From: a phage
Sequence record: PX405663.1
Strand: one strand, 5' to 3'
Length of the DNA: 45,326 nucleotides
Position 1 is the stretch's first letter; each line of letters starts with the position of its first letter. Shown here piece after piece: positions 1-45,326 of this stretch. Under the pieces are notes generated by a model. It was not told the DNA's origin, ran no database searches, and worked only from the letters and a program-made list of their open reading frames with translations. Both the position numbers and the translations under genes were made by a program.

Positions 1-818
1 TGGCACGCATCAACGCTGGGGCGGAAGTCGGCACGGGTAAGCCCCTTCTTGCCTCGGGAATACGCCTCCAGTGCGGCAATAGCGCGCTTGGATGCAAACT
101 TCGCGAATATCTCCAGCGCTTCTACCGAAATATCCCACTCCGACGCCCCGCCGCAATACGGCTGGAAGATAACCAGTCGCACGGTCGTAATGTCGTACAT
201 AGTTTGCAGCTTGCGCAGCAGGCCGAGCGCGTACAACATAAGCTGTTTGTTCTCTTTCGCCTCGACCTTATGCCGCCCGGTCTTCAGGTCGCCAACAATC
301 AGCATGTACGTCCCATCGGTCTTTTTCATGACCATGACCATATCTGCAGTACCGAACGTTTTAATCCTGTTGCCGTCGATCTCGTAGCCTGAGTGAAGGA
401 CGCGGGTCAGATCGGCGCGCATCTCAAGCTGAACAAACTCCGCCACTTCGATGAGCGGTCGCCAGTGGTCGATGTACGCGTCGCACTGTTTCACCATGTC
501 GTCGTTGACCAGTACGCCGCCTTTCGGTGCTTTCGGGTGTGCCTTTACTGGCCCCTTGCCTTCGTTCTCGACGTAGCACCCTTTATACGTCTTTGCGGTT
601 ATCAGCTTTTCACCGGCGATAATGCGGTTTAGCACCACTTCAGATACGGTGTGCATACTCGTACCGTTAATCGCGGCTTGCCCGGATTCGTTCGGGATAT
701 CTTTTTCTACCACCAGGGCAGCTGGGCAACCCATCCATTTTTTAGCACCGGATGGCCCGAGTAATGAGTGTTCCGTATTGCTACCGGATTGCGTCTTACG
801 TTTTGGTTTAATCGCCAT
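1..818 (-). CDS. Cas4/RecB-family PD-(D/E)xK exonuclease (DUF2800-like), N-terminal part; ORF runs off the window start and continues at 45199..44587 across the circular junction (about 476 aa in total)
   Basis: Codon-by-codon hand translation of the minus strand from ATG at 816..818 (TAATG overlap with upstream stop) is open to position 1: MAIKPKRKTQSG...WMGCPAAL...GTADMVMVMKKTDGTYMLIVGDLKTGRHKVEAKENKQLMLYALGL...RPSVDACQ; N-terminal Cys, D/E-K core with QxxxY, and CQWCRFADQC (C-x2-C-x5-C) spanning the junction are typical of Fe-S Cas4/AddB-type nucleases. Confidence 0.7.
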   Translation of the reverse strand, partial: MAIKPKRKTQSGSNTEHSLLGPSGAKKWMGCPAALVVEKDIPNESGQAAINGTSMHTVSEVVLNRIIAGEKLITAKTYKGCYVENEGKGPVKAHPKAPKGGVLVNDDMVKQCDAYIDHWRPLIEVAEFVQLEMRADLTRVLHSGYEIDGNRIKTFGTADMVMVMKKTDGTYMLIVGDLKTGRHKVEAKENKQLMLYALGLLRKLQTMYDITTVRLVIFQPYCGGASEWDISVEALEIFAKFASKRAIAALEAYSRGKKGLTRADFRPSVDAC

Positions 819-2025: not shown

Positions 2026-2058
2026 GGATTTGACACCGTGCAGTTTTGGGTGTAGTTT
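2026..2058 (+). promoter_or_regulatory. sigma70-like promoter for the plus-strand arm
   Basis: TTGACA, 17-nt spacer, TAGTTT about 35 nt upstream of the 2090 start codon. Confidence 0.4.
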
Positions 2059-2089
2059 CGTTGGTCATTAACCAACTGAGGGCAGAGCA

Positions 2090-2419
2090 ATGAATGTAAA
2101 CGACGCAATCGAAATGTTAACGAAGACTGTTAGCAGTGAAACAAGCCGGTCATGGGCTTATACCGATGCCGTTGGGGCGGTGTTGTTTGAAATCGAACGT
2201 CTGCGACTTACCGAAAAAGAATTGCGCGCGAAGCTGGAATTACTCAACGGTACTGCAGCAAGCAAGCTGCAAAAGCACAATGAAGAAATGGAAGAATACA
2301 AAAAACAGGTTATCCGTTTGCGCGCCGAGGGCAAATCCTGGGCAATGATTGCCGAGTTGACTGGGATTAATCAGAGCACAGTGCGCTCCTGGGTACGCAA
2401 TAATAAAACTTCTAAGTAA
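2090..2419 (+). CDS. coiled-coil plus C-terminal helix-turn-helix DNA-binding protein (109 aa)
   Basis: ORF track; GAGGG SD; C-terminal SWAMIAELTGINQSTVRSWV resembles an HTH. Confidence 0.55.
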   Translation: MNVNDAIEMLTKTVSSETSRSWAYTDAVGAVLFEIERLRLTEKELRAKLELLNGTAASKLQKHNEEMEEYKKQVIRLRAEGKSWAMIAELTGINQSTVRSWVRNNKTSK

Positions 2420-2429
2420 GGCCACGGCA

Positions 2430-4694
2430 ATGAGCTTAATTAAATTCGCTGTAACACGACCCGCTAAAAAAGGCGAAAAAGCCAGGGCGGAAAACTTCCA
2501 GATGACCACCGATGAATTTTTCGAATTTATCAAAGATGCGAAAGAAATCTCATCGGTGCATATCAACAAGACGGAAGATAAAGCCGAGTATGCGCGCCGC
2601 AAGCGTAAGGCCGATGGCATCGTAGCATATACCAGTGACGGCCTTCGCCGCAAGACCAGTGCGGTGGACCGCTCGATCCTGTTCTTCGATATCGACCGTA
2701 CCGACACCCGCACCTTACGCCGCTGCCGTAAGGCGTTCATTGACGCGGGTCTGGAACATGTGTTTCACACCACTACCGGCGACCGTCACCCGCTTAAAGG
2801 TGGAACGCGTTGCGCTCGCTTCCTGGTACTCACTGACAAGCCTGTACCGGCTGAAGACCTGGGCCGCGTCCAGTATGCACTATTACACCAACTGGGTCTG
2901 TCAGATGTGGACTTCGACGACTGCACGAAAGACACAAACCGCCTGATGTACCTGCCCCACCAGCAGTCTGTTATTAAGTGCCACTATGGCAAGCGCGCCC
3001 GCGTCCGTCGTCTGCTCCGCCTGGCTGACAAGCTGGGGGTGGAAAAAGAGGAAGTACGCCGCGAGCTTACCCAGGGCGACGACGCAGTGGCAGACGGTAT
3101 TCTGGACTGGTGCTTCCAGGCAGGATTCGAGGAGTTATCTTCCGGGCGGGGCTATGAAGTGCCGTGCCCGAACGAACATCTGCACAGCGGCGAAGGGTCC
3201 ACCGCCATAATGGTCAAGGATGGCGAGATCCGTTTCAAGTGTATGCACACCGGCAACGAGTGTTGCTCGGAACTGAATAGACACCAGCACCTGGCGCTAC
3301 GTCTTATCGGGATCCCGGACCACCTGAACGTCGAGCCACACAATATGTCCCGTAAGCAAATCGCCGCCATCCTTCCGGGGCTGGACGACGAGGAAGTCGA
3401 ATCCTTATATGAACATATTGTTGATGCGGTTGGAGACGGCGAAGAATACGGCGTGTGCACCGATGCGGATCTGGATAACGAGCCGGTTGCGCTGTTCAGT
3501 AAGCACGACCCGATTATCGAGGGGTTGATTAACTTTAAATCGACCTGGTACATGGCGGGTGAGTCGAATATCGGTAAGTCTTTCTATGTGCTGGGCCAGA
3601 TGGGCGCGGTTGCCGCCGGTATTCCGTTTGGTGGCGCGAAGGTCGTCCAGTCTCATTGCTTCTATTTCGACGCGGAAGGTGGCGAAGCCTCTAACCAGCG
3701 TAAAGAAGCATTGCAGATTAAATATGAGCACGACCTGGACAAGCTGCACATTATAGACCTGCAGTCACGCGGCTGGGATATCACCAGCAAATCAGGCTTG
3801 CGCGAAGTTATCAGCTTTATCAACCGCACCGCTAACGGCGAACCGGTTGGCCTGGTGGCGTTCGACTCACTCAACCAGACTGTTGCGTTGCGGTCCGCTG
3901 ATGCTAAACCGTTCGACGAGAACAACGCCAGCGATATGGGTGAAGTGGTCAAAGCGCTGAAGGCCATCGCGGAAAATACAGGTGGCAGTGCGGGCGTCAT
4001 CCACCACCCGGCTAAAGGTGCAAACGGCAGCAGAACGCCACGCGGGTCCGGCGCGCTGCATGGTGCTGTCGATTCTGCGTTCTTCCTGGAACAGCCGGAC
4101 GACAACCAGCCCGGACAATTGAACCTGTATCATGAGAAGTCACGTAACGGCATCAAGCAAGCGCCGCGCGGCTTCGTCCTGCTCAAGTGCAAGGTGAAGG
4201 TGGATCTCCGCAAGTCAGAAGCGTTCGAGGCGCACCAGTCCACCAGCACCGGGCCAGACTTCGGCGACGTGGTTGCCGGATGGGACGTCAAGCCGATTGC
4301 CTCCACGCCACGCGACGAGACTCTCTACCTCGTACCGGTTGCCCTGGCACCTTTCGCTATTGAACAGGCGAAGGCAGCAGGCAAGGCCGCGGTTAAGGAA
4401 GAGAACACCGCCGGACCGCGCAACGAAAAAGAGAAAGTGCTTTATGCGGCACTGGAAAAACTGATGGAAGATAACCCGGACCATACTGGATTCAGTAAAT
4501 CGGCAATTGTCCGCCAGGCGGGACTCGCGAAAGGCGGCACTTCGACGAAGGCAATCGACGATATGGTGGAGCGCGGGGTGATAGGTTTTTACACCGATCC
4601 GCACACCGGGGCCATCTATGGGTCGTCTAATTTGGTCATCAAATCGGATATCCCTATCACGCTTTCCGCGACCGATGACGATTTAAAAGATTAA
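2430..4694 (+). CDS. DNA primase-helicase (primase-polymerase-like N-terminal domain, zinc-binding region, P-loop NTPase/helicase C-terminal half)
   Basis: 754-aa ORF; FFDIDRTD and HVFHTTTGD primase-like motifs; CPNEHLHSG...CMHTGNEC zinc motif; Walker A GESNIGKS. Confidence 0.75.
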   Translation: MSLIKFAVTRPAKKGEKARAENFQMTTDEFFEFIKDAKEISSVHINKTEDKAEYARRKRKADGIVAYTSDGLRRKTSAVDRSILFFDIDRTDTRTLRRCRKAFIDAGLEHVFHTTTGDRHPLKGGTRCARFLVLTDKPVPAEDLGRVQYALLHQLGLSDVDFDDCTKDTNRLMYLPHQQSVIKCHYGKRARVRRLLRLADKLGVEKEEVRRELTQGDDAVADGILDWCFQAGFEELSSGRGYEVPCPNEHLHSGEGSTAIMVKDGEIRFKCMHTGNECCSELNRHQHLALRLIGIPDHLNVEPHNMSRKQIAAILPGLDDEEVESLYEHIVDAVGDGEEYGVCTDADLDNEPVALFSKHDPIIEGLINFKSTWYMAGESNIGKSFYVLGQMGAVAAGIPFGGAKVVQSHCFYFDAEGGEASNQRKEALQIKYEHDLDKLHIIDLQSRGWDITSKSGLREVISFINRTANGEPVGLVAFDSLNQTVALRSADAKPFDENNASDMGEVVKALKAIAENTGGSAGVIHHPAKGANGSRTPRGSGALHGAVDSAFFLEQPDDNQPGQLNLYHEKSRNGIKQAPRGFVLLKCKVKVDLRKSEAFEAHQSTSTGPDFGDVVAGWDVKPIASTPRDETLYLVPVALAPFAIEQAKAAGKAAVKEENTAGPRNEKEKVLYAALEKLMEDNPDHTGFSKSAIVRQAGLAKGGTSTKAIDDMVERGVIGFYTDPHTGAIYGSSNLVIKSDIPITLSATDDDLKD

Positions 4695-4794
4695 ATTTTG
4701 CGCGCATTGGTTGCCATTTTGCGTGCTTTTAGTCGGTCGTATTGGTTGCCGTGTAGTGTAAATATAGTGAATAGTTATGCAATAAAACTGCATA

Positions 4795-4965
4795 AAGTAA
4801 GCGGGACAAAAAGCGGGACAACCAGGGGGCGGGACAAAGCGGGACAGCACCCCTGTCCCGCCCCGGATGACGCGGCCTGGAGAGGAGCGGGACAGCGGGA
4901 CAGCACCCCAGTCTTTCAGACTAGACGGGGGGTCTGGCACCCCCCTCGTCTGAGACTGCATAAAA
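4795..4965. repeat. noncoding array 1: GCGGGACA(A/G) repeats in direct and inverted orientation ending in a conserved 51-bp imperfect hairpin (4908..4958)
   Basis: At least 7 copies of GCGGGACA within about 120 bp including the palindrome GGGACAGCACCCCTGTCCC; near-identical copy of the terminal element at 22101..22150. Confidence 0.8.
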
Positions 4966-5112
4966 TCCAGGATTGCATAATACACGGCAGCGTGATGCGA
5001 ATTGCGGTCGTCGACGAACTAGGCAACCAATACGAGTTGCAGAATGGTGGGTGAAAAATGCAGTTTGCAGTTTCAGCAGATAGCGATCAACTTTTTCATG
5101 CGCGTGATTGAT

Positions 5113-5169
5113 ATTGGTTGCACCCACCCTGGCACCCTGCTATATTGGTTGCACACCAACATGAGGACC
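5113..5169 (+). promoter_or_regulatory. tandem TATTGGTTGCA promoter-like motifs with TATATT -10 and conserved leader
   Basis: TTGCAC, 17 nt, TATATT; 27-nt stretch TATATTGGTTGCACACCAACATGAGGA is identical to the minus-strand sequence at 16214..16240. Confidence 0.55.
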
Positions 5170-5174
5170 GAACA

Positions 5175-5501
5175 ATGAAAGCGATTATCTGGAATTACGC
5201 AATGGCTATGGCGGCGGCACAAGAAGCGGCGGAGTTCGCCGGTGAAGGAGCGGAAGCGGTCGAAAGACTATCGGCAGCGTGGTCCGTTGTTCGCGTCACG
5301 CAGCAGGCCATCGCCTGTATGCTTGAGCGCCGCTTCGACACTATGGGAGAGATCCAGCCGTTGGCGAACGCTATCCAGGACTACGCGCTGGCATTTGCCC
5401 GTGAGCGCCTGGCGTATCGCTTCGGGATCGGTGAGACGGCAGCGACAAACGTCGCCCGGATTAAAGCCCAGCGCGAACTATTCGCCCAGCTTGCGAAATA
5501 A
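5175..5501 (+). CDS. hypothetical early protein (108 aa)
   Basis: ORF track frame, start moved to the ATG 7 nt after GAGGA. Confidence 0.5.
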   Translation: MKAIIWNYAMAMAAAQEAAEFAGEGAEAVERLSAAWSVVRVTQQAIACMLERRFDTMGEIQPLANAIQDYALAFARERLAYRFGIGETAATNVARIKAQRELFAQLAK

Positions 5502-6734: not shown

Positions 6735-6877
6735 GCGCAACCATCCGTGATATGCTTATGCACAACCGTTTTGAGATAGGCGGTCGGGTATTTCGCAATT
6801 ACTTCGTGGCGCGTGCATGGGCGCGCCATATTGGCAAACCGGAAGGGGCAATTCGATGCTATACGTCTTCGCGGTAG
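6731..6877 (+). CDS. small hypothetical protein (48 aa)
   Basis: ATGA overlap with upstream gene; same frame as track ORF 6662..6877. Confidence 0.25.
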   Translation: MSATIRDMLMHNRFEIGGRVFRNYFVARAWARHIGKPEGAIRCYTSSR

Positions 6878-14725: not shown

Positions 14726-14837
14726 CCCGTCCGCGGACCCCGACGAAGATTTGATGATTGACGTGAAAAATATGGAGTGCGGGGCGAGGCTGAGGGCGCA
14801 GGTCCTGGAGTTGCAGCAAATAATGAAGGGGCCGTAA
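14598..14837 (+). CDS. o-spanin (Rz1-like outer-membrane lipoprotein), overlapping the i-spanin gene
   Basis: 79 aa; signal peptide with lipobox LSAC; Pro-rich mature part; AAAGAGG SD. Confidence 0.6.
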   Translation: MLNMLRALTALIVVLMLSACGSSNVPLMPLTESALRQPCKFDNPSADPDEDLMIDVKNMECGARLRAQVLELQQIMKGP

Positions 14838-14849
14838 TGGCCCCTTTTT
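14826..14849 (+). terminator. rho-independent terminator at the o-spanin stop
   Basis: GGGGCCGTAATGGCCCC followed by TTTTT. Confidence 0.5.
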
Positions 14850-14851
14850 CG

Positions 14852-15616
14852 TTATCGCGGAATACCGCAAATCTCGTTGAGAGTTTTCACATCCAGCGCC
14901 ACCGCCGTGGATTTTGGCTTGTCCGGGTAAGGGATGAATTGCTCAACTTCAGGCCATGCCTTAATCAGCTTCTTGTCAGTATTGTGCAGGTCCAGCACAC
15001 CGGTAACGGTCAACTTGAACGCGTCATACTTAGCCCGCAACTCACGGCGGGCCTTGTCGTTACGGTCCAGGCGCTTACAGAAATCATGATCCGCCGGGAA
15101 ATCCGCACGGCAGTGTGGCTTATAGATCGGCAGCGCTTTCCCGTCCTCGTCCACTTCGCACACTGACGCGAGCATAACTTCTTCAAACCCCGGTACGATA
15201 TCGCCTAAATCGGGGGATAGCTTATTCATGTATTTATATTCCCAGTATCCGCGATGTGCGCGGCATTGGCGACCGTCACCGCTCAAGGATAAGGTGCGAA
15301 CATTTCCGCCTGCGTTGATTTCGAAAGTGGCGTCGTAAACGCTGCCGATACCTTTCGGGCGGTCGGCGTCATAACGATATGTCGCCTTGTTGGTGTAGAC
15401 GCAGACGCCGTACATCTGCGACGGGTCATCGCTGATTGCCTCGATACGCTCGCGGAGCGCTGCGAACGTGCGAATGCCTTCCGGCATACAGTCCAGCGTA
15501 ATGGCGTACGCCAGGTCGCGAGAGTCCATCATGATTTGTTTGGCTTCGGTTGCGATTTCGTGGTCGCGCAGGATGTTAGCCAGAATCTGATTTTTAATGT
15601 CTTTCGTCAGTCTCAT
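14852..15616 (-). CDS. hypothetical protein (254 aa), antisense island within the morphogenesis module
   Basis: ORF track; GAGGA SD 8 nt upstream; no motif recognised. Confidence 0.6.
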   Translation of the reverse strand: MRLTKDIKNQILANILRDHEIATEAKQIMMDSRDLAYAITLDCMPEGIRTFAALRERIEAISDDPSQMYGVCVYTNKATYRYDADRPKGIGSVYDATFEINAGGNVRTLSLSGDGRQCRAHRGYWEYKYMNKLSPDLGDIVPGFEEVMLASVCEVDEDGKALPIYKPHCRADFPADHDFCKRLDRNDKARRELRAKYDAFKLTVTGVLDLHNTDKKLIKAWPEVEQFIPYPDKPKSTAVALDVKTLNEICGIPR

Positions 15617-15697
15617 TTTTGTGTCCTCGTTGTTGGGGCTTTCGCCCCGTTTGGTTTAGTTAAACTTGATGTTGCCGCCAATAGGGTGCTTTGTTAG

Positions 15698-16210
15698 CTA
15701 CAAACGCATCGGCATGATAACAAGGAAGGCACCGCCTTTGAACAGCACACGTGTCGCCTTGTCTACTCCCTGAAATTCCAGTTTTAAGCTATCAAACTTA
15801 CGGTCGAACAATTTAGCAATTTTGCAGGCGTCGGACAGGTATACCCCGGCAAACCCTATAGCCTCCACTTTAGCGCTGTCGAAAGACGTAACACGACGCC
15901 AGTCTGGGAATCTGCCGTCTATGATCTCTACGGGTATGGTACCGATTAATACGTCTTTACTATCAAAGAACGCAGCGGATGTGCCGTCTATGTTGCAGTA
16001 TTCGAATTTTGTAGGTAAGCGGCCTTTAATTGCTACTATTTTACTTTCACCTTCGGGAATAACCGCGGACCCGCAGAACAAACGATGACCGTCGGTGGCC
16101 ACGATGAATCCTTTCTCGTCGAAAAATACACCCTTCAGATAGTACCGCACGTCATTAGTTGCGGCGCACATCATAGCGGCTTTAAGATCGGCATAGTTAA
16201 CTTTAATCAT
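15698..16210 (-). CDS. truncated DnaN-like protein (DNA polymerase III beta sliding-clamp domain fragment, about 170 aa)
   Basis: Track ORF 15698..16657 trimmed to the ATG 7 nt after GAGGA; VRYYLKGVFFDEKGFIVATDGHRLF, IIDGRFPDWRRV and C-terminal VIMPMRL closely match conserved E. coli DnaN segments. Confidence 0.7.
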   Translation of the reverse strand: MIKVNYADLKAAMMCAATNDVRYYLKGVFFDEKGFIVATDGHRLFCGSAVIPEGESKIVAIKGRLPTKFEYCNIDGTSAAFFDSKDVLIGTIPVEIIDGRFPDWRRVTSFDSAKVEAIGFAGVYLSDACKIAKLFDRKFDSLKLEFQGVDKATRVLFKGGAFLVIMPMRL

Positions 16211-16213
16211 TGT

Positions 16214-16262
16214 CATTTCCTCATGTTGGTGTGCAACCAATATACTGCAACCAACATACGCA
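16214..16262 (-). promoter_or_regulatory. tandem TATTGGTTGCA promoter-like motifs driving the antisense DnaN-like operon
   Basis: Minus strand reads TATGTTGGTTGCAGTATATTGGTTGCACACCAACATGAGGA; 27 nt identical to 5143..5169. Confidence 0.55.
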
Positions 16263-16358
16263 ACGCAAGCGAATTTTGCGATTATTTTTATCGCTGATAA
16301 TATTAGAAGCGTGAAGTCAAGCGGGTGGCCCGCTTTGCCACAATCCCAGGGGGATAGC

Positions 16359-17060
16359 ATGAAACTTACTAAAGCTGAATATGACGCGTTGCCGGAAGGT
16401 ATGAAAGCGCTTTTTGTTGCCGATGGTGACGGGTATAAATCAACGTTCATGACCGCCGAAGAAGTACAGGCGGAGATCAAGGGTCTGAAAGACAACAACG
16501 CGAAGCTGGTTAGCGAGAAGAAAGCAGAAGCCGAACGCCGCGCCGAAGCCGAGCGCCTTGCGAAAGAGAAAGAGGAAGCCGCAGCGCGCAAAAATGGCGA
16601 CCTCGAAGCGATCGACAAGTCCTGGAAAGATAAGTTTGCGAAACACGAAGCAGACACATCGGGAAAAATCGAAGCCTACCGCAAGCAGATCCACGACCTA
16701 ACCATCGGCAGCGCTGCCAAAGATTTGGCCTCGAAGCTGTTCGGTAAGAATGCGGGCATCATGCAACGCCACGTTATGGACCGTCTGACGCTGGAAGATG
16801 GCGAAGACGGCAGCTTGAAGGTGCGTGTCTTGCAGGATGGCAAACCGTCAGCGCTGACTATGGAAGAGCTTGAAAAAGAGTTCCGTAATAACGCCGATTT
16901 TGCATCCGTCCTGGCGGGCACGCCAGCCGGTGGTGCGCCGAGCAAACCGACGCAGGTCGTCGAAGATGTGAAGTCTAAAATCACTATGGGCCACAGCTTT
17001 GGCATCACCGACCTGACGAAACAGGCGGGTGAAATCATCGCTAAAATGGGCGACGAGTAA
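16359..17060 (+). CDS. scaffolding protein (candidate)
   Basis: Track ORF 16311..17060 trimmed to the ATG after AGGGGGA; Ala/Glu/Lys-rich coiled coil; directly upstream of the major capsid gene. Confidence 0.6.
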   Translation: MKLTKAEYDALPEGMKALFVADGDGYKSTFMTAEEVQAEIKGLKDNNAKLVSEKKAEAERRAEAERLAKEKEEAAARKNGDLEAIDKSWKDKFAKHEADTSGKIEAYRKQIHDLTIGSAAKDLASKLFGKNAGIMQRHVMDRLTLEDGEDGSLKVRVLQDGKPSALTMEELEKEFRNNADFASVLAGTPAGGAPSKPTQVVEDVKSKITMGHSFGITDLTKQAGEIIAKMGDE

Positions 17061-21823: not shown

Positions 21824-22160
21824 TTAAGCGGGACAGGCGGGACGTCCCGTTCTGTCCCGTTCCGTCCCGCCTCCTGCAAAACTGCATACTTACGCACCAC
21901 ATTTGCATAAACTAAAAGCGGGACAGGGGTGCTGTCCCGATCCGTCCCACCCCAAAAATGTGAATGTCTATTCAGTTTTAGTGCATAAAACAAACGGGAC
22001 AAAAAGCGGGACAGAATTGGGCGGGACAAAGCGGGACAGCACCCCTGTCCCCGCCAGTGCTGCCGCGGGTTTTAGCCAATCAGGACAGGCGGGACAAAGC
22101 CCAGTCTTTCAGACTAGACGGGGGTCGATGGCCCCCCTCGTCTGAGACTGAATAAGGTTT
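21824..22160. repeat. noncoding array 2: more than 15 GGGACA-core repeats in both orientations plus the conserved 51-bp hairpin (22101..22150), inserted between the tail chaperone and tape measure genes
   Basis: GCGGGACAG, GCGGGACG, CGTCCCG, CTGTCCCG and others; the palindrome GGGACAGCACCCCTGTCCC is shared with array 1. Confidence 0.8.
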
Positions 22161-32070: not shown

Positions 32071-32292
32071 TTACCACTCCCGTGATTTAACTGATACTGT
32101 GCCTGAGAAGTTGCCGTCGCTATCGGATGACAGCCCAGTGAATCGCATGTCTACATCTCCTGCCGGGACTTTTTGCCCGTCAACGTAGCGCAACATGCAG
32201 CTACCGTAAGCAACCGTAACGCAATCGCCGTTGTTGCGATCTACGGCGCAACCGGACAAAAGAACCGCACAAATCATAATTAAAGTTTTCAT
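32071..32292 (-). CDS. small lipoprotein (about 73 aa), candidate superinfection-exclusion lipoprotein
   Basis: Track ORF 32071..32355 trimmed to MKTLIMICAVLLSGCAV (signal peptide with lipobox LSGC). Confidence 0.55.
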   Translation of the reverse strand: MKTLIMICAVLLSGCAVDRNNGDCVTVAYGSCMLRYVDGQKVPAGDVDMRFTGLSSDSDGNFSGTVSVKSREW

Positions 32293-32334
32293 GGTATCAT
32301 CTCTTATATTTGGTTGAGTTTTAGTATTACACCG

Positions 32335-32362
32335 CTCAACCAGGATTGCAACCAATTTACGA
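32335..32362 (-). promoter_or_regulatory. TATTGGTTGCA-type promoter-like motif oriented toward the antisense lipoprotein gene
   Basis: Minus strand reads AAATTGGTTGCAATCC about 45 nt upstream of the lipoprotein start; overlaps the tail fibre SD on the other strand. Confidence 0.45.
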
Positions 32363-35837: not shown

Positions 35838-35905
35838 TTTTTAGTGGGGGCGGTATTGCCCCCGACGTGATTAAGATACTGCAACCAACCTATTGGTTGC
35901 AAGTG
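35838..35905 (-). promoter_or_regulatory. inverted pair of TGCAACCAA/TTGGTTGCA motifs followed by a leader hairpin
   Basis: Plus strand 35880..35902 TGCAACCAACCTATTGGTTGCA; GGGGGCGGTATTGCCCCC hairpin between motif and SD. Confidence 0.45.
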
Positions 35906-36581: not shown

Positions 36582-37047
36582 GTAGCTCACTCTCGCTCAT
36601 TATTTCAATTTGTGCGCTGCCGCTGGGCGGCGCTTCGTCAAATATTATTAATTGCTGGCACTTGTTATTGCTCGGACCGACTTCGCCGGTGACGGCGTGG
36701 ATGAATCTAATCCGCCAGTCCAGAAGAATTATCATATTGGCGGTCTTCCGGGCCAGCCTCGCCCACTTCGTCGACGTGTCCTGATTCAGCAGCATGACAG
36801 TCCGGCGTCCGTGCGCTGCGCACTCGACCCACGGCAGCGGATCGGAATATGGCGGGTTGCACCATTTCCACCCTTTCAACTCGGACCAGTCAGCATCAAG
36901 CGCGCTGTGTTCCGCCGTGAAGTATCGCGGTAGCAGGTGATTGGCATCGCTTGCCGCCATATCGTAACGGAATCGGTATTTCCGGCGCAGCGGTTTAAAT
37001 AAAGCTGGCGGCGTGCGCCAGCTATCTTTCTGCTCACTCTTCGTCAT
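36562..37047 (-). CDS. DNA N6-adenine methyltransferase (phage Dam-like)
   Basis: Track ORF 36562..37164 trimmed to avoid a 130-nt overlap; WRTPPALF and WCNPPYS (NPPY catalytic motif). Confidence 0.65.
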   Translation of the reverse strand: MTKSEQKDSWRTPPALFKPLRRKYRFRYDMAASDANHLLPRYFTAEHSALDADWSELKGWKWCNPPYSDPLPWVECAAHGRRTVMLLNQDTSTKWARLARKTANMIILLDWRIRFIHAVTGEVGPSNNKCQQLIIFDEAPPSGSAQIEIMSESELHEYLSR

Positions 37048-37492
37048 TCTGCGGGTCCAGTGCGTACAGGGCCGTTTTCTTGTCTCGGGTAAGTACGCGC
37101 TGGATCCGCGCCATCTCATCCTTGCCAAGAGGTCGGCTATCGGAATAGTAGCTGCCGTTCGCACGCCACGCTATCAGCACCAGGTCTTTCCTGTCGATCT
37201 TAGACTGGCGGCCCTTCGGTCGCACGTACTCCTCGGCGCGTTTACAATGCTCGCGCAGACCTTCGGCAGTGATGCGGTTTAGCGCCACGCTGGTGGTGTA
37301 TCCTGTGCGCTGCATAATCCCCATCAATTCGAAAAGCAGTTCGAAGCGCTCCTCTAACTCCATGCGGCGCTTTTCTTCCGTTTCATAGCTTGACAGGTAG
37401 GTATCTGCCAGCGCGCTGACGCGTTCTGCCTGCTCGCGGGCTTTAAGGCATTGCGCGGACCAGTAATCTTTTTCTTCTTGTAAAATTTTCAT
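37034..37492 (-). CDS. hypothetical coiled-coil protein (152 aa)
   Basis: ORF track; GGAG SD. Confidence 0.5.
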   Translation of the reverse strand: MKILQEEKDYWSAQCLKAREQAERVSALADTYLSSYETEEKRRMELEERFELLFELMGIMQRTGYTTSVALNRITAEGLREHCKRAEEYVRPKGRQSKIDRKDLVLIAWRANGSYYSDSRPLGKDEMARIQRVLTRDKKTALYALDPQNDEE

Positions 37493-37501
37493 CGTGTTGT
37501 C

Positions 37502-37580
37502 TCCAGGTATTAAAAAGGGCGTCCAAACCGGACACCCTCAATATAATGCAACCAATACGATTATGCAACCAATTTACGCA
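37502..37580 (-). promoter_or_regulatory. tandem TATTGGTTGCA motifs with TATATT, followed by leader hairpin plus T-run
   Basis: Minus strand reads AAATTGGTTGCATAATCGTATTGGTTGCATTATATTGAG then GGGTGTCCGGTTTGGACGCCC TTTTT then SD and ATG. Confidence 0.5.
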
Positions 37581-40270: not shown

Positions 40271-40276
40271 TATTAA

Positions 40277-40450
40277 TTATTTTTGCGCTGCGCGGTAGCG
40301 GCGCTGCCGTTCACGCTCTTTTTTATTGCGGCACGATTTGCACTCGGCACGATACCCATCGGGGCTGCGCGCAGTTTTGCCGGTGTATTTGTGGAACTGG
40401 GATAGCGGCTTGACGCAACCGCAATTACTACAACGTTTTTCTTCAACCAT
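40277..40450 (-). CDS. small zinc-ribbon protein (about 57 aa)
   Basis: Track ORF 40277..40522 trimmed to MVEEKRCSNCG with GAGGA SD; CxxC...CxxC. Confidence 0.4.
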   Translation of the reverse strand: MVEEKRCSNCGCVKPLSQFHKYTGKTARSPDGYRAECKSCRNKKERERQRRYRAAQK

Positions 40451-40490: not shown

Positions 40491-40769
40491 CTACGCGACC
40501 AATTCAGCAACCAATAAATCACAGTCGGCTATGTTGTCGATGACGCGAACGTCCGCACCGCGGCGGGCCATTCGCTCATGTTCTCGTACCTGGTGCGGCT
40601 TCGGTTTTCCTCTGGGGCGCTTCACTTCGACGAACACTATTTTGCCGTTGATTATAATAATCAGGTCGGGCGCACCTGCGCGCCCCTCCCATGCCAGTTT
40701 GCGGCAGAATCCGCCGACCTCTTTCACCCGTCGCATCAGGTGACTTTGAATCTTGCCTTCTGGTGTCAT
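40491..40769 (-). CDS. VRR-NUC domain nuclease
   Basis: 92 aa; APDLIIIINGKIVFVEVKRPRGKPKPHQVREHERM matches the VRR-NUC D..EVK..Q pattern. Confidence 0.65.
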   Translation of the reverse strand: MTPEGKIQSHLMRRVKEVGGFCRKLAWEGRAGAPDLIIIINGKIVFVEVKRPRGKPKPHQVREHERMARRGADVRVIDNIADCDLLVAELVA

Positions 40770-44261: not shown

Positions 44262-44351
44262 TTTCCAATTCCTCATTTTCACATGTATCGGGGCTATTGG
44301 AAGCCACCCCGTTCGGCTTGGTTGCTAATCTACTTGGTTGCGCCTAAGCGG

Positions 44352-44594: not shown

Positions 44595-45326
44595 TGCTTA
44601 AGTCCTCATCAGTGGCTTCAGACCATGCAGGGCGCGGGTCGTCGATTGGGGCTAATACCGGTTTAGCCGGTGCGCGTGTGATTTTATCACACAGCTTCGC
44701 CCACACTTTTGGTTTTTCGTCCTTCAATACCTTCTCGGCATCCGTAGGGCTGAGCAATGTTTCTTTGTACATCACATCGCGCTTGATCCGGGCCTTCGTG
44801 AAGATTTCAATCACTTCGCTCTCGTCCGCCCACTTACGGATCCCTTCCTTACCGGCAACCATCTTGAGGCCCAGCGATTCGCCATCGCCCGCCATTACAG
44901 CCTTAAATACCGCGGACTCGATCGCTTTGATGTGCTGGCGCATTGCGTCCAGGCCCTCATAAGCCTTGCGCAGTTCCGCAGCGCTCATAGCTCCGGGGGC
45001 CGCTTCTTTCTTACCACGCTTCGCACGTCGTGCCGCCTTCCGGGCTTCGCGGGCCATATTGCGGTCGTGGTTGGCGCATTCTTCCTCTGTCGCAATACTC
45101 ACGTCGTCGCCCAGGTCTTCGTCGGTTGCCGTTGGCGGTGTCATCGTATCGATTGCGGCCTTAGCGCGGGCACTACACTGATCCGCAAATCGGCACCACT
45201 GGCACGCATCAACGCTGGGGCGGAAGTCGGCACGGGTAAGCCCCTTCTTGCCTCGGGAATACGCCTCCAGTGCGGCAATAGCGCGCTTGGATGCAAACTT
45301 CGCGAATATCTCCAGCGCTTCTACCG
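44587..45326 (-). CDS. C-terminal part of the junction-spanning Cas4/RecB-family exonuclease (unique part 44587..45199; 45200..45326 duplicates 1..127)
   Basis: Track ORF 44587..45144 is the downstream part of a frame that stays open upstream to the window end and is in frame with the minus-strand ORF at 818..1. Confidence 0.7.
   Translation of the reverse strand, partial: VEALEIFAKFASKRAIAALEAYSRGKKGLTRADFRPSVDACQWCRFADQCSARAKAAIDTMTPPTATDEDLGDDVSIATEEECANHDRNMAREARKAARRAKRGKKEAAPGAMSAAELRKAYEGLDAMRQHIKAIESAVFKAVMAGDGESLGLKMVAGKEGIRKWADESEVIEIFTKARIKRDVMYKETLLSPTDAEKVLKDEKPKVWAKLCDKITRAPAKPVLAPIDDPRPAWSEATDEDLSNE
45200..45326. repeat. 127-bp exact duplicate of positions 1..127 (assembly overlap of a circular or terminally redundant genome)
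   Basis: Identical sequence at both window ends; the coding frame is continuous across the join. Confidence 0.85.

What the first reader, a model, noticed from the sequence alone, without database searches (positions are those of the whole stretch)
16214..16240. Identical 27-nt promoter-leader (TATATTGGTTGCACACCAACATGAGGA) shared by an early plus-strand gene and the antisense DnaN-like operon
The sequence from -10 through the Shine-Dalgarno at 5143..5169 (+) is repeated exactly at 16214..16240 (-). This implies the antisense island inside the structural module is co-regulated with early gene 5175..5501, or that a promoter cassette was duplicated when the island was acquired.
Basis: seen in the sequence. 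Interest (0 to 1): 0.5.

Follow-up and report, generated by a model that had tools for sequence, protein, structure and literature searches.

The report
Shared promoter-operator before swappable phage genes
The repeated 27 bases are real: they are two copies of a 21-base promoter-plus-operator that every phage of this genus keeps at the same two places, each switching on a slot of interchangeable accessory genes, so it is an undescribed but fairly ordinary kind of phage control element.

Summary
The 27-mer is present exactly twice, at 5141-5167 (+) and 16218-16244 (-), 2-4 nt off the stated coordinates and far beyond chance. The window is a complete Dhillonvirus (HK578-like coliphage) genome. 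About 160 sequenced relatives all carry two copies. The conserved unit is a 21-mer, TATATTGGTTGCACACCAACA. The extra TGAGGA identity is specific to this sub-lineage. Homology between phages collapses just after the 21-mer, so it is a fixed promoter in front of variable cargo: clamp-like gene + nmad5 here, other genes elsewhere. It was not duplicated when the island arrived.

The 21-mer contains TTGGTTGC, the most over-represented word in the genome (about 18 sites, all conserved in relatives), and an inverted repeat TTGGT-N5-ACCAA over the expected start site. That repeat occurs only three times; the third copy is at the promoter of the only HTH protein found (2090-2419).

Best model: a sigma70 -10 element overlapped by the operator of this phage regulator, which autoregulates and co-controls both cargo slots. 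Binding and start sites are inferred, not shown. Undescribed element of a known kind; modest interest.

The parts
5141..5167 (+). 27-mer copy 1. The genus-conserved 21-mer core is 5141-5161. It comprises -10 TATATT (5141-5146), TTGGTTGC (5145-5152), the inverted repeat TTGGT-N5-ACCAA (5145-5159) and SD GAGGA (5163-5167). The predicted start site is about A5153.
16218..16244 (-). 27-mer copy 2. The genus-conserved 21-mer core is 16224-16244. It comprises -10 TATATT (16239-16244), the inverted repeat (16226-16240) and SD GAGGA (16218-16222). The predicted start site is about A16232.
5114..5123 (+). Upstream TTGGTTGCA copy at locus 1. Its TTGCAC (5118-5123) is the candidate -35, 17 nt from TATATT.
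16246..16268 (-). Upstream TTGGTTGCA copy at locus 2 (16246-16254, within the promoter spacer), plus the candidate -35 TTGCGT (16263-16268), 18 nt from TATATT.
2030..2082 (+). Early promoter of the HTH gene: TTGACA (2030-2035), 17 nt, TAGTTT (2053-2058). It is followed by the third and only other TTGGT-N5-ACCAA inverted repeat (2061-2075) and the CCAACTGAGG leader. This is the candidate autoregulatory operator.
2090..2419 (+). 109-aa protein with a C-terminal helix-turn-helix (HTH_23 / Sigma70_r4_2). It is the candidate regulator that reads TTGGTTGC. Residues 47-106 are invariant across the clade.
5175..5501 (+). First cargo gene of locus 1 (108 aa, phrog_9839, unknown function). SO-1 and HK578 have an unrelated 59-aa gene here instead.
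15698..16210 (-). First cargo gene of locus 2: a 170-aa homologue of beta sliding clamp domains II-III (about half a protomer).
15625..15648 (-). GNRA hairpin GGGGCGAAAGCCCC followed by CCAACAACGAGG, a relic of the 21-mer's 3' end plus SD in front of nmad5. It marks the clamp-like gene as an insertion into the nmad5 leader.
14852..15616 (-). Second cargo gene of locus 2: Nmad5-domain protein. Its homologue is the reported trigger of the Tmn defence system in Dhillonvirus.
   Evidence: PMC11846954
14825..14847 (.). Bidirectional intrinsic-terminator-like hairpin. It closes both the rightward operon and the antisense cargo unit.
37547..37572 (-). Tandem TTGGTTGCA pair. The TTGCAT of the upstream copy lies 17 nt from a TATATT -10. 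This is the promoter of 37034-37492.
35880..35901 (.). Perfect inverted pair TGCAACCAA-ccta-TTGGTTGCA, upstream of a leftward gene.
40506..40514 (-). TTGGTTGCT site whose TTGCTG lies 17 nt from TATAGT. This is the promoter of the Lar-like gene 40273-40446.
32347..32355 (-). TTGGTTGCA site whose TTGCAA lies 16 nt from TAATAC. This is the promoter of the lipoprotein gene.
4707..5030 (.). Three conserved TTGGTTGCC sites (4707+, 4742+, 5022-) in the repeat-rich non-coding region after the primase-helicase gene.
44318..44342 (+). Tandem TTGGTTGCT / TTGGTTGCG pair in a leftward intergenic gap, in inverted orientation relative to local transcription.

Best explanation
The repeat is two copies of a genus-wide 21-bp promoter-operator, TATATTGGTTGCACACCAACA.

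- TATATT is a sigma70-type -10 hexamer, with a weak TTGCAx -35 located 17-18 nt upstream.
- The rest of the 21-mer lies over the predicted start site. It is one instance of TTGGTTGC, a cis-element with about 18 conserved sites in the genome, arranged here as an imperfect inverted repeat TTGGT-N5-ACCAA spanning about -8 to +7.
- The most likely reader of this element is the phage's own 109-aa helix-turn-helix protein (2090-2419), the first gene behind the strong rightward early promoter.
- The same inverted repeat sits just after the -10 of that gene's own promoter. The protein would therefore autoregulate and, once made, shut down both 21-mer promoters together.
- Each 21-mer promoter fronts a slot of interchangeable accessory genes. 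Locus 2 is a moron-like antisense unit (promoter, clamp-like gene, nmad5, terminator) between the lysis/head-morphogenesis operon and the scaffold gene.
- The short leader after the operator (CCAACA...GAGGA) also acts as the joint at which cargo genes have been inserted or stacked.

Shown: the repeat, its conservation, the motif family, the cargo variability and the leader relic. Inferred: promoter activity, the start site, the binding protein and the direction of regulation.
For: - **Exact repeat:** far beyond chance.
- **Two copies per genome:** about 160 Dhillonvirus records (324 places in 164 records).
- **Invariant 21-mer:** conserved at both loci in 8 genomes and 24 further copies. The only variable base is the third position of TATATT, the -10 position known from sigma70 promoter studies to tolerate change best.
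- **Footprint profile:** at locus 2, identity is 0.88-0.98 upstream, 0.72 in the -20..-1 spacer, 1.00 in the 21-mer, then 0.3-0.5. Locus 1 shows a spacer dip to 0.52 and 0.94 in the 21-mer.
- **Variable cargo:** only 8 of 160 records share the locus-2 cargo and 52 of 158 the locus-1 cargo. There are at least four locus-2 arrangements.
- **Motif enrichment and conservation:** TTGGTTGCA is the top 9-mer, 11 observed vs 0.35 expected. All ~18 TTGGTTGC sites are retained in six relatives while their flanks drift. The motif is also enriched at the same architectural positions in a more distant lineage.
- **Inverted repeat:** TTGGT-N5-ACCAA occurs 3 times vs 0.05 expected: the two 21-mers and the HTH gene's promoter. 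That third site is conserved. In the distant lineage it reads TATATT-ct-TTGGTCTGCAACCAA, with GCAACCAA invariant.
- **Candidate regulator:** the HTH protein is the only one of 31 window proteins scanned against Pfam that has a DNA-binding domain. Its HTH half is invariant across the clade. The model is confident, with a long helix plus an HTH that superposes on DNA-bound HTH units.
- **Unit boundary:** a terminator closes the antisense unit.
- **Leader relic:** the same leader sits in front of nmad5.
Against: - No expression or binding data exist for any Dhillonvirus, and no paper in the searched library describes the motif or these promoters.
- The simple sigma70 consensus scanner does not flag either site, because the -35 is only 3/6.
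- Site spacing and orientation are heterogeneous (tandem at 9-35 bp, or inverted; by my reading of the site list, about 11 co-oriented with transcription and 6 not). That is unusual for a simple dimeric repressor.
- At four promoters the motif supplies the -35 rather than covering the start site, so the same protein might activate there, or the motif may be a promoter-specificity element.
- The HTH family is confined to this clade, so protein-motif covariation could not be tested.
- Many small ORFs have no assigned function and could encode the true binder.
Confidence: 0.55

Rival explanations
1. Promoter-class element without a repressor. TTGGTTGC(A) would be a promoter-specificity determinant, either an extended -35 read by host RNA polymerase or by polymerase modified by a phage factor. 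On this view the copy over the start site in the 21-mer only sets promoter strength or initial transcription, and the two loci share it because they belong to the same promoter class.
For: At 5114, 37564, 40506 and 32347 the TTGCAx of the motif lies 16-17 nt upstream of a good -10. Most sites are intergenic and, by my reading of the site list, most are co-oriented with transcription. The candidate protein's HTH also matches Sigma70_r4_2, the -35-reading domain.
Against: In the 21-mer, in the HTH gene's promoter and in the distant lineage, the motif sits downstream of the -10, where it cannot act as a -35. Conserved sites also occur in inverted orientation and inside genes (5022, 5698, 44318/44334). 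Sigma70 contacts would not constrain the TTGG preceding TTGC.
Confidence: 0.17
2. Recombination joint as the primary role. The conserved promoter-leader would persist because it is the homology patch through which accessory-gene cassettes are swapped between co-infecting phages (as proposed for PeSL cassettes of T4-type phages), with regulation being secondary.
For: Inter-phage homology breaks right after the 21-mer at both loci. The leader CCAACA..GAGGA flanks the inserted first gene on both sides at locus 2. Opt212 has deleted the 31 bp between two direct motif copies.
Against: There are only two fixed copies per genome in about 160 genomes. No cargo is shared between the two loci in 8 genomes. 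The long conserved flanks already provide homology for exchange. The base-by-base invariance, with a variable spacer immediately upstream, is a functional footprint rather than a recombination scar. No stem-loop or terminator is part of the repeated unit.
Confidence: 0.1
3. Replication element. TTGGTTGC sites would be iterons bound by the primase-helicase (or a host replication factor). The two 21-mers would then be outlying iterons that happen to overlap promoters.
For: Five sites cluster in the 480-bp repeat-rich non-coding region directly after the primase-helicase gene, which the SO-1 record marks as a repeat region. The distant lineage has sites at the end of and just after that gene.
Against: More than half of the sites are scattered over 40 kb, directly upstream of genes at promoter-like positions. 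Pfam finds only an AAA_25 domain in the primase-helicase and no DNA-binding domain. A different repeat (AGCGGGACA) forms the dense arrays expected of an origin.
Confidence: 0.08
4. Host transcription factor site. A host regulator would bind the motif and tie these promoters to host physiology. One candidate is CytR, whose half-site GTTGCATT (recalled from memory) resembles part of the motif.
For: Some copies read GTTGCATT exactly, e.g. 37547 and the upstream copies in relatives.
Against: Conservation covers TTGGTTGC, including TTGG, which lies outside that half-site. The bases after GC vary freely (A, C, G, T; then anything) at conserved sites. I saw no CRP-like site beside the motif copies in the stretches I read by eye; no systematic search was run.
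Confidence: 0.04
5. RNA leader element. The TTGGT...ACCAA inverted repeat would act as a hairpin in the mRNA 5' end (stability or processing) rather than as a DNA operator.
For: The arms are invariant while the loop differs between the 21-mer and the HTH-gene copy.
Against: The hairpin is weak and no better than shuffles (-3.4 to -4.6 kcal/mol, z -0.4 to +0.1). From the predicted start site the leader is unstructured. The 5' arm overlaps the -10 hexamer, so it would not be transcribed from this promoter. In the distant lineage only one arm is conserved.
Confidence: 0.03

Closest known systems
Phage morons (autonomous promoter-gene-terminator units inserted between conserved genes, as defined for HK97/lambdoid phages; from established knowledge)
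   Same: Locus 2 is a self-contained unit on the opposite strand, between the lysis/head-morphogenesis operon and the scaffold gene. It has its own promoter-like element and a terminator, and its content varies between close relatives. The SO-1 GenBank record already calls its clamp-like gp7 a 'possible moron'.
   Different: Here the promoter is not part of the mobile unit. It is a fixed, genus-wide feature, and only the genes behind it change. The phage is virulent, so the unit is not expressed from a prophage. Locus 1 is co-oriented with its operon.
Shared operators of phage repressors, e.g. lambda OL/OR read by CI/Cro (from established knowledge)
   Same: Near-identical short operator sequences overlap the core elements of two separate, oppositely oriented promoters. 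A related site lies at the regulator's own promoter. This gives coordinated control plus autoregulation.
   Different: There is no lysogeny module. The sites are mostly single asymmetric 8-mers with irregular spacing rather than 17-bp symmetric operators in triplets. The candidate protein is a long helix plus a C-terminal HTH, with no detectable homology to CI or Cro. Binding is untested.
Stoperators of cluster A mycobacteriophages (L5 gp71 repressor; many asymmetric 13-bp sites across the genome; from established knowledge)
   Same: One short asymmetric word is repeated about 18 times across the genome, mostly in short intergenic gaps. It is conserved among relatives, and an HTH protein is the presumed reader.
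   Different: Orientation relative to transcription is not uniform (by my reading of the site list, about 11 co-oriented and 6 not). Many sites coincide with -35 or start-site positions of promoters rather than acting as elongation blocks. The phage is virulent.
PeSL promoter-stem-loop cassettes of T4-type phages (Arbiol et al. 2010; from memory, not read here)
   Same: A conserved promoter-containing sequence marks the boundary of hypervariable accessory ORFs. Short repeats of it flank an inserted gene.
   Different: There are only two fixed copies per genome, and no stem-loop or terminator in the repeated unit. No cargo is shared between the copies.

Membership tests
sigma70-dependent promoter | -10 hexamer close to TATAAT, with A at position 2 and T at position 6 | tested here: met
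   TATATT is 5/6. Across 32 copies, only position 3 ever varies.
sigma70-dependent promoter | -35 hexamer close to TTGACA at 16-18 nt | tested here: inconclusive
   TTGCAC lies at 17 nt (locus 1) and TTGCGT/TTGCAA/TTGCAT at 18 nt (locus 2). These match only 3-4 of 6, and the consensus scanner does not flag them.
sigma70-dependent promoter | Mapped transcription start about 7 nt after the -10 | not testable with these tools
   I know of no transcript data for any Dhillonvirus, and the one literature search aimed at this was uninformative. The predicted starts are A5153 (+) and A16232 (-).
Repressor operator with autoregulation | Inverted repeat overlapping the core promoter or start site | tested here: met
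   TTGGT-N5-ACCAA spans about -8..+7 in both 21-mers. It occurs 3 times vs 0.05 expected.
Repressor operator with autoregulation | Related site at the regulator gene's own promoter | tested here: met
   The site is at 2061-2075, right after the -10 of the HTH gene's promoter. It is conserved in 8 of 9 Dhillonvirus genomes and, as GCAACCAA, in the distant lineage.
Repressor operator with autoregulation | Cognate protein binds the site and lowers transcription | not testable with these tools
   Only a candidate exists: the 109-aa HTH protein. No covariation test was possible.
Moron | Own promoter and terminator flanking the ORF(s) | tested here: met
   The 21-mer promoter-like element is at 16224-16244, and the bidirectional terminator-like hairpin at 14825-14847. 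Promoter activity itself is inferred.
Moron | Presence or content varies between otherwise collinear relatives | tested here: met
   Arrangements seen: clamp-like + nmad5 (window, EP23); clamp-like alone (SO-1); 109-aa gene + nmad5 (YD-2008.s); the same 109-aa first gene (Kente; its second gene was not examined); unrelated 140-aa gene (HK578); nmad5 alone (LM40P1, Opt212, SM_S22).
Moron | The whole unit, including its promoter, is the inserted element | tested here: not met
   The promoter region is conserved in about 160 genomes regardless of cargo. Variability begins after the 21-mer.
PeSL-type mobile regulatory cassette | Repeat unit comprises a promoter plus a stem-loop/terminator, present in many copies flanking variable ORFs | tested here: not met
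   There are two copies per genome and no stem-loop within the repeated unit. The upstream flanks are locus-specific.
L5-type stoperators | Many asymmetric sites, all in one orientation relative to transcription | tested here: not met
   About 18 sites exist, but at least 6 are anti-oriented or inverted: 5022, 5698, 26890, 35893, 44318, 44334.
Beta sliding clamp (DnaN), for the gene downstream of copy 2 | Three-domain protomer of about 366 aa | tested here: not met
   The protein is 170 aa and aligns only to clamp residues ~140-300 (E 6e-8). The Pfam DNA_pol3_beta_2 score of 22.1 bits is below the 27-bit cut-off. It is a homologue of clamp domains, not a full clamp.

The most novel reading that the evidence does not exclude
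A strictly lytic coliphage genus runs a single-regulator circuit. One small HTH protein, made first from a consensus early promoter, reads about 18 copies of an 8-bp word. Through start-site operators it shuts off its own gene and two conserved 'cargo slots'. These slots hold rapidly exchanged genes involved in phage-host defence conflict: nmad5, the reported Tmn trigger, sits in one. The same word at -35 positions switches on middle genes. One of these middle genes may be the anti-Tmn homologue. The 21-mer slots would then be natural, co-timed expression sites for defence-related accessory genes, and the leader would be the joint through which they are stacked.
Probability: 0.3. Interest if true: 0.55.

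Novelty: new member of a known kind. Interest (0 to 1): 0.35.

Why it matters
Dhillonviruses are common therapeutic-candidate coliphages and are already being engineered, for example to evade Tmn. I found no description of their transcriptional programme.

If the model holds, the finding provides three things:
- A defined regulon word (TTGGTTGC) and a candidate master regulator.
- Two natural, conserved insertion slots with a native promoter, operator and ribosome-binding leader, where payload genes could be placed with predictable timing.
- An explanation for why defence-related accessory genes such as nmad5 vary at exactly these positions.

It also corrects the annotation of the 109-aa 'transposase' and gives concrete start-site and binding predictions that are cheap to test.

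Tried and rejected
- **Chance or recent duplication:** rejected by shuffles and by the two-copy state in about 160 genomes.
- **Longer duplicated coding segment:** rejected. The flanks and the encoded proteins are unrelated.
- **Cargo shuttling between the two loci:** no cross-locus tblastx or blastn hit in 8 genomes.
- **RNA hairpin:** no better than shuffles.
- **Strong consensus promoter:** the scanner flags nothing at either site, so the promoter call rests on the -10, the spacing, the position and conservation.
- **Literature on the motif or on Dhillonvirus promoters:** nothing relevant. One search was badly specified and uninformative.
- **Fold search of the HTH model:** no significant whole-chain match. 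Only generic HTH superpositions (DeoR, LuxR/GerE, resolvase, IstA), so no family assignment.
- **Covariation between the HTH protein and the motif:** not possible, because all homologues found have the same recognition helix.
- **Element outside the clade:** only two unrelated chance matches in IMG/VR, L016 and L019.
- **Sigma54 reading (TGGCAC-N5-TTGCA):** considered by eye. The spacings do not fit.
- **ORF35 (anti-Tmn) = PhiSMS22 CDS0035:** could not be proven from the paper's main text.

Full report
**1. Observation**

The 27-mer TATATTGGTTGCACACCAACATGAGGA is present exactly twice, at 5141-5167 on the + strand and 16218-16244 on the - strand. There are no further hits at up to three mismatches, and none in 100 dinucleotide-preserving shuffles.

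In both places the stretch ends in GAGGA, 7 nt before an ATG: 5175 (+) and 16210 (-). Upstream of the 27-mer the two loci differ. Downstream only the bases around the start codon agree. The encoded proteins are unrelated, so this is not the edge of a longer duplicated coding segment.

**2. What the window is**

The window is about 92% identical over long stretches to Dhillonvirus genomes, the HK578/SO-1/EP23-like virulent E. coli siphophages. Its first and last 127 nt are identical, so it is a circularly closed assembly of a complete genome of about 45.2 kb.

Gene content around the two copies:
- **Copy 1** sits at the right edge of a 480-bp repeat-rich non-coding region that follows the primase-helicase gene (2430-4694). 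It precedes a 108-aa protein of unknown function.
- **Copy 2** sits in the 148-bp divergent gap between the head scaffold gene (16359-17060, +) and a leftward pair of genes.
- The first of that pair is a 170-aa protein that aligns to beta sliding clamp residues ~140-300 (E 6e-8). Its Pfam score is below the cut-off.
- The second is an Nmad5-domain protein (E 1.7e-59).
- A bidirectional terminator-like hairpin at 14825-14847 closes this leftward unit.

**3. The repeat is genus-wide, and the conserved unit is 21 nt**

A 32-nt query around copy 1 finds 324 places in 164 phage records, essentially two per Dhillonvirus genome. In the window, seven fetched genomes and 24 further copies from IMG/VR contigs, the stretch TATATTGGTTGCACACCAACA is invariant at both loci. 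The single exception is its third base (TATATT, TAGATT, TACATT or AATATT).

The six bases that extend the identity to 27 nt are specific to the window and one other contig, L013. EP23 and SO-1 carry the same clamp-like gene but read ...ACAACGAGGaaatgacaATG. Phages with other cargo read ...ACAGAGATAtgaagg....

The two-copy state therefore predates the radiation of the genus. It was not created when this phage obtained its clamp-like gene.

**4. Fixed promoter, variable cargo**

Mean pairwise identity among eight genomes was measured around each locus.
- **Locus 2:** 0.88-0.98 upstream, 0.72 in the 20 nt before the 21-mer, 1.00 in the 21-mer, then 0.3-0.5.
- **Locus 1:** the same spacer dip (0.52) and a conserved 21-mer (0.94), with a slower decay.

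BLAST shows the same pattern across about 160 records. Most alignments to the window stop inside or a few bases after the 27-mer. Only 8 of 160 records share the locus-2 cargo, and 52 of 158 the locus-1 cargo.

Cargo seen behind the locus-2 promoter:
- clamp-like gene + nmad5 (window, EP23)
- clamp-like gene alone (SO-1)
- a 109-aa gene + nmad5 (YD-2008.s); Kente has the same 109-aa first gene, but its second gene was not examined
- an unrelated 140-aa gene (HK578)
- nmad5 alone (LM40P1, Opt212, SM_S22 and two IMG/VR contigs)

Behind the locus-1 promoter there is either a 101-108-aa family or an unrelated 59-aa gene. No cargo is shared between the two loci.

**5. How cargo was added**

Where nmad5 directly follows the promoter, its leader reads ...CACACCAACAACGAGGACACAAAA-ATG. 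In the window, EP23 and YD-2008.s, nmad5 is the second gene, and its leader is ...GGGGCGAAAGCCCCAACAACGAGGACACAAAA-ATG. The 3' end of the 21-mer plus the SD is thus retained behind a GNRA hairpin, with no -10.

The word CCAAC-N(1-4)-GAGG occurs five times in the genome (1.1 expected). Four of these are directly in front of start codons: the HTH gene, the locus-1 cargo, the clamp-like gene and nmad5.

The first gene at locus 2 therefore looks like an insertion into the nmad5 leader, bounded on both sides by the same leader word. What recurs, however, is the leader acting as a joint, not a duplication of the promoter.

**6. The 21-mer belongs to a genome-wide motif family**

TTGGTTGCA is the most over-represented 9-mer in the genome: 11 observed vs 0.35 expected under a third-order Markov model. 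With one mismatch allowed there are 22 sites vs 11.5 expected. About 18 TTGGTTGC sites exist, often in pairs and mostly in intergenic gaps.

In six relatives the 8-bp core is retained at essentially every site, while the bases immediately beside it drift. That is a clear phylogenetic footprint.

A more distant lineage was found through homologues of the HTH protein. It has the same gene order but a divergent sequence. It also has the word enriched, and in the same places: the early divergent region, the end of the primase-helicase gene, and a tandem pair before the first gene after the gap.

**7. Position relative to promoter elements**

At 5114, 37564 and 40506 the TTGCAx part of the motif lies 17 nt upstream of TATATT, TATATT and TATAGT respectively. 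At 32347 it lies 16 nt upstream of TAATAC. At these sites it can serve as a -35.

In the 21-mer the motif lies downstream of the -10. Taking TATATT as -12..-7, TTGGTTGC covers -8..-1 and the inverted repeat TTGGT-tgcac-ACCAA covers -8..+7.

This inverted repeat (TTGGT-N5-ACCAA) occurs only three times in 45 kb (0.05 expected). Two are the 21-mers. The third is at 2061-2075, two bases after the -10 of TTGACA-17-TAGTTT, the promoter of gene 2090-2419. The HK578 record annotates consensus promoters in that same divergent early region.

The third site is conserved in eight of nine Dhillonvirus genomes. In the distant lineage it reads TATATT-ct-TTGGTCTGCAACCAA. There GCAACCAA (TTGGTTGC on the other strand) is invariant, while the other arm varies.

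The only variable base of the 21-mer is the third position of the -10 hexamer. From established knowledge of sigma70 promoters, this is the least constrained position, which supports the -10 assignment.

The simple consensus scanner does not call either promoter, because the -35 is only 3/6.

As RNA, the inverted repeat is no more stable than shuffled sequence. From the predicted start the leader is unstructured.

**8. Candidate reader**

Gene 2090-2419 encodes a 109-aa protein that databases label 'transposase'. Pfam finds only a C-terminal HTH (HTH_23, HTH_28, Sigma70_r4_2). Its residues 47-106, including the presumed recognition helix, are invariant across the whole clade, while the N-terminus varies freely.

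The AlphaFold model (mean pLDDT 85) is a long helix ending in a compact HTH. Foldseek gives no significant whole-chain match. The HTH superposes at about 1 A on DNA-binding units of DeoR, LuxR/GerE-type regulators, resolvases and IstA.

Among 31 window proteins scanned against Pfam, it is the only one with a sequence-specific DNA-binding domain.

It is the first gene behind the strong rightward early promoter, and it carries the operator-like repeat at that promoter. Autoregulation plus co-repression of the two 21-mer promoters is therefore the most economical model.

This link is inferred. The family is confined to this clade, so covariation could not be tested. Many small ORFs remain unassigned.

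**9. Comparison with known systems**

- **Morons.** Locus 2 behaves like a moron, and the SO-1 record already says 'possible moron' for gp7. Here, though, the promoter is fixed and only the genes change.
- **Phage operators.** The shared start-site operator plus an autoregulatory site works like classical phage operator sets such as lambda OL/OR. There is no lysogeny module, however, and the sites are mostly asymmetric 8-mers with irregular spacing.
- **Stoperators.** The many dispersed asymmetric sites recall L5 stoperators, but their orientation is not uniform.
- **PeSL cassettes.** The boundary role recalls PeSL cassettes of T4-type phages, but there are only two fixed copies and no stem-loop in the repeat.

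Searches of the paper library for the motif strings and for promoter descriptions in this phage group found nothing relevant.

A Dhillonvirus study shows that nmad5, 'located near the capsid gene', is the trigger sensed by the Tmn defence system (PMC11846954). This places a defence-relevant gene in one of the slots.

**10. Verdict**

The co-regulation idea is plausible and is now better grounded. The 'duplicated on acquisition' idea is not supported.

The feature is an undescribed but conventional kind of element: a conserved promoter-operator of a phage regulon, fronting two accessory-gene slots. Interest is modest. Its main value is as a concrete, testable map of Dhillonvirus regulation and as natural payload sites for engineering.

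Noticed in passing
window 1-127 and 45200-45326: The first and last 127 nt are identical. The window is therefore a circularly closed assembly of a complete genome of about 45.2 kb, and the exonuclease gene spans the junction.
   Followed up: partly
window 4770-4990 and 21827-22045: There are dense arrays of AGCGGGACA / GGGACA repeats (9 exact copies vs 0.30 expected), plus TGCATAA repeats. They lie in two non-coding regions, one after the primase-helicase gene and one before the tape-measure gene. These correspond to 'region B' and 'region A' annotated as repeat regions in the Sodalis phage SO-1 record, and are candidate origin(s) of replication.
   Followed up: partly
window 15617-15697 (- strand): Between the clamp-like gene and nmad5 lies a GNRA hairpin, GGGGCGAAAGCCCC, with no T-tract after it. 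It is followed by a relic of the 21-mer leader. The same spacer follows a different first gene in YD-2008.s, and the two unrelated first genes share their last codons (...GNIKFN*).
   Followed up: partly
window 37034-37492 (-): The product is 75% identical to PhiSMS22 CDS0035 (labelled 'DNA ligase'). That CDS may be the anti-Tmn ORF35 of PMC11846954, but the equivalence is not proven. The gene is absent from HK578 and lies directly behind the TTGGTTGCA pair promoter at 37547/37564.
   Followed up: partly
window 35880-35901: A perfect 9-bp inverted repeat, TGCAACCAA-ccta-TTGGTTGCA. It is the only head-to-head pair of full motif copies, and is conserved in five of the six relatives examined (only one arm aligned in LM40P1).
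   Followed up: partly
window 32290-32355 (- strand): The promoter of the lipoprotein gene has an 8-bp inverted repeat, TGGTTGAG...CTCAACCA, bracketing its -10 (TAATAC). This is a second motif-like palindrome, next to a full TTGGTTGCA site.
   Followed up: no
window 15698-16210 (-): The 'DnaN-like' protein is only 170 aa and aligns to clamp domain II and part of III, so it is about half a clamp protomer. PHROGs labels its family 'RusA-like Holliday junction resolvase', which looks like a mis-annotation.
   Followed up: partly
L007 (Opt212) 6736-6762: At locus 1, Opt212 has lost exactly the 31 bp between the two direct ATATTGGTTGCA copies, leaving one copy. This is consistent with recombination between the direct repeats.
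   Followed up: no
window 2090-2419 (+): This protein is annotated as 'transposase' (or 'Gam-like') in public records. It has only an HTH and a long helix, with no catalytic domain. Its N-terminal 45 residues are hypervariable, while residues 47-106 are invariant across the clade.
   Followed up: yes
window 2030-2058 (+): Within the early promoter of the HTH gene, GACACC...GGTGT forms an additional inverted repeat between the -35 and the -10. It is conserved in relatives.
   Followed up: no
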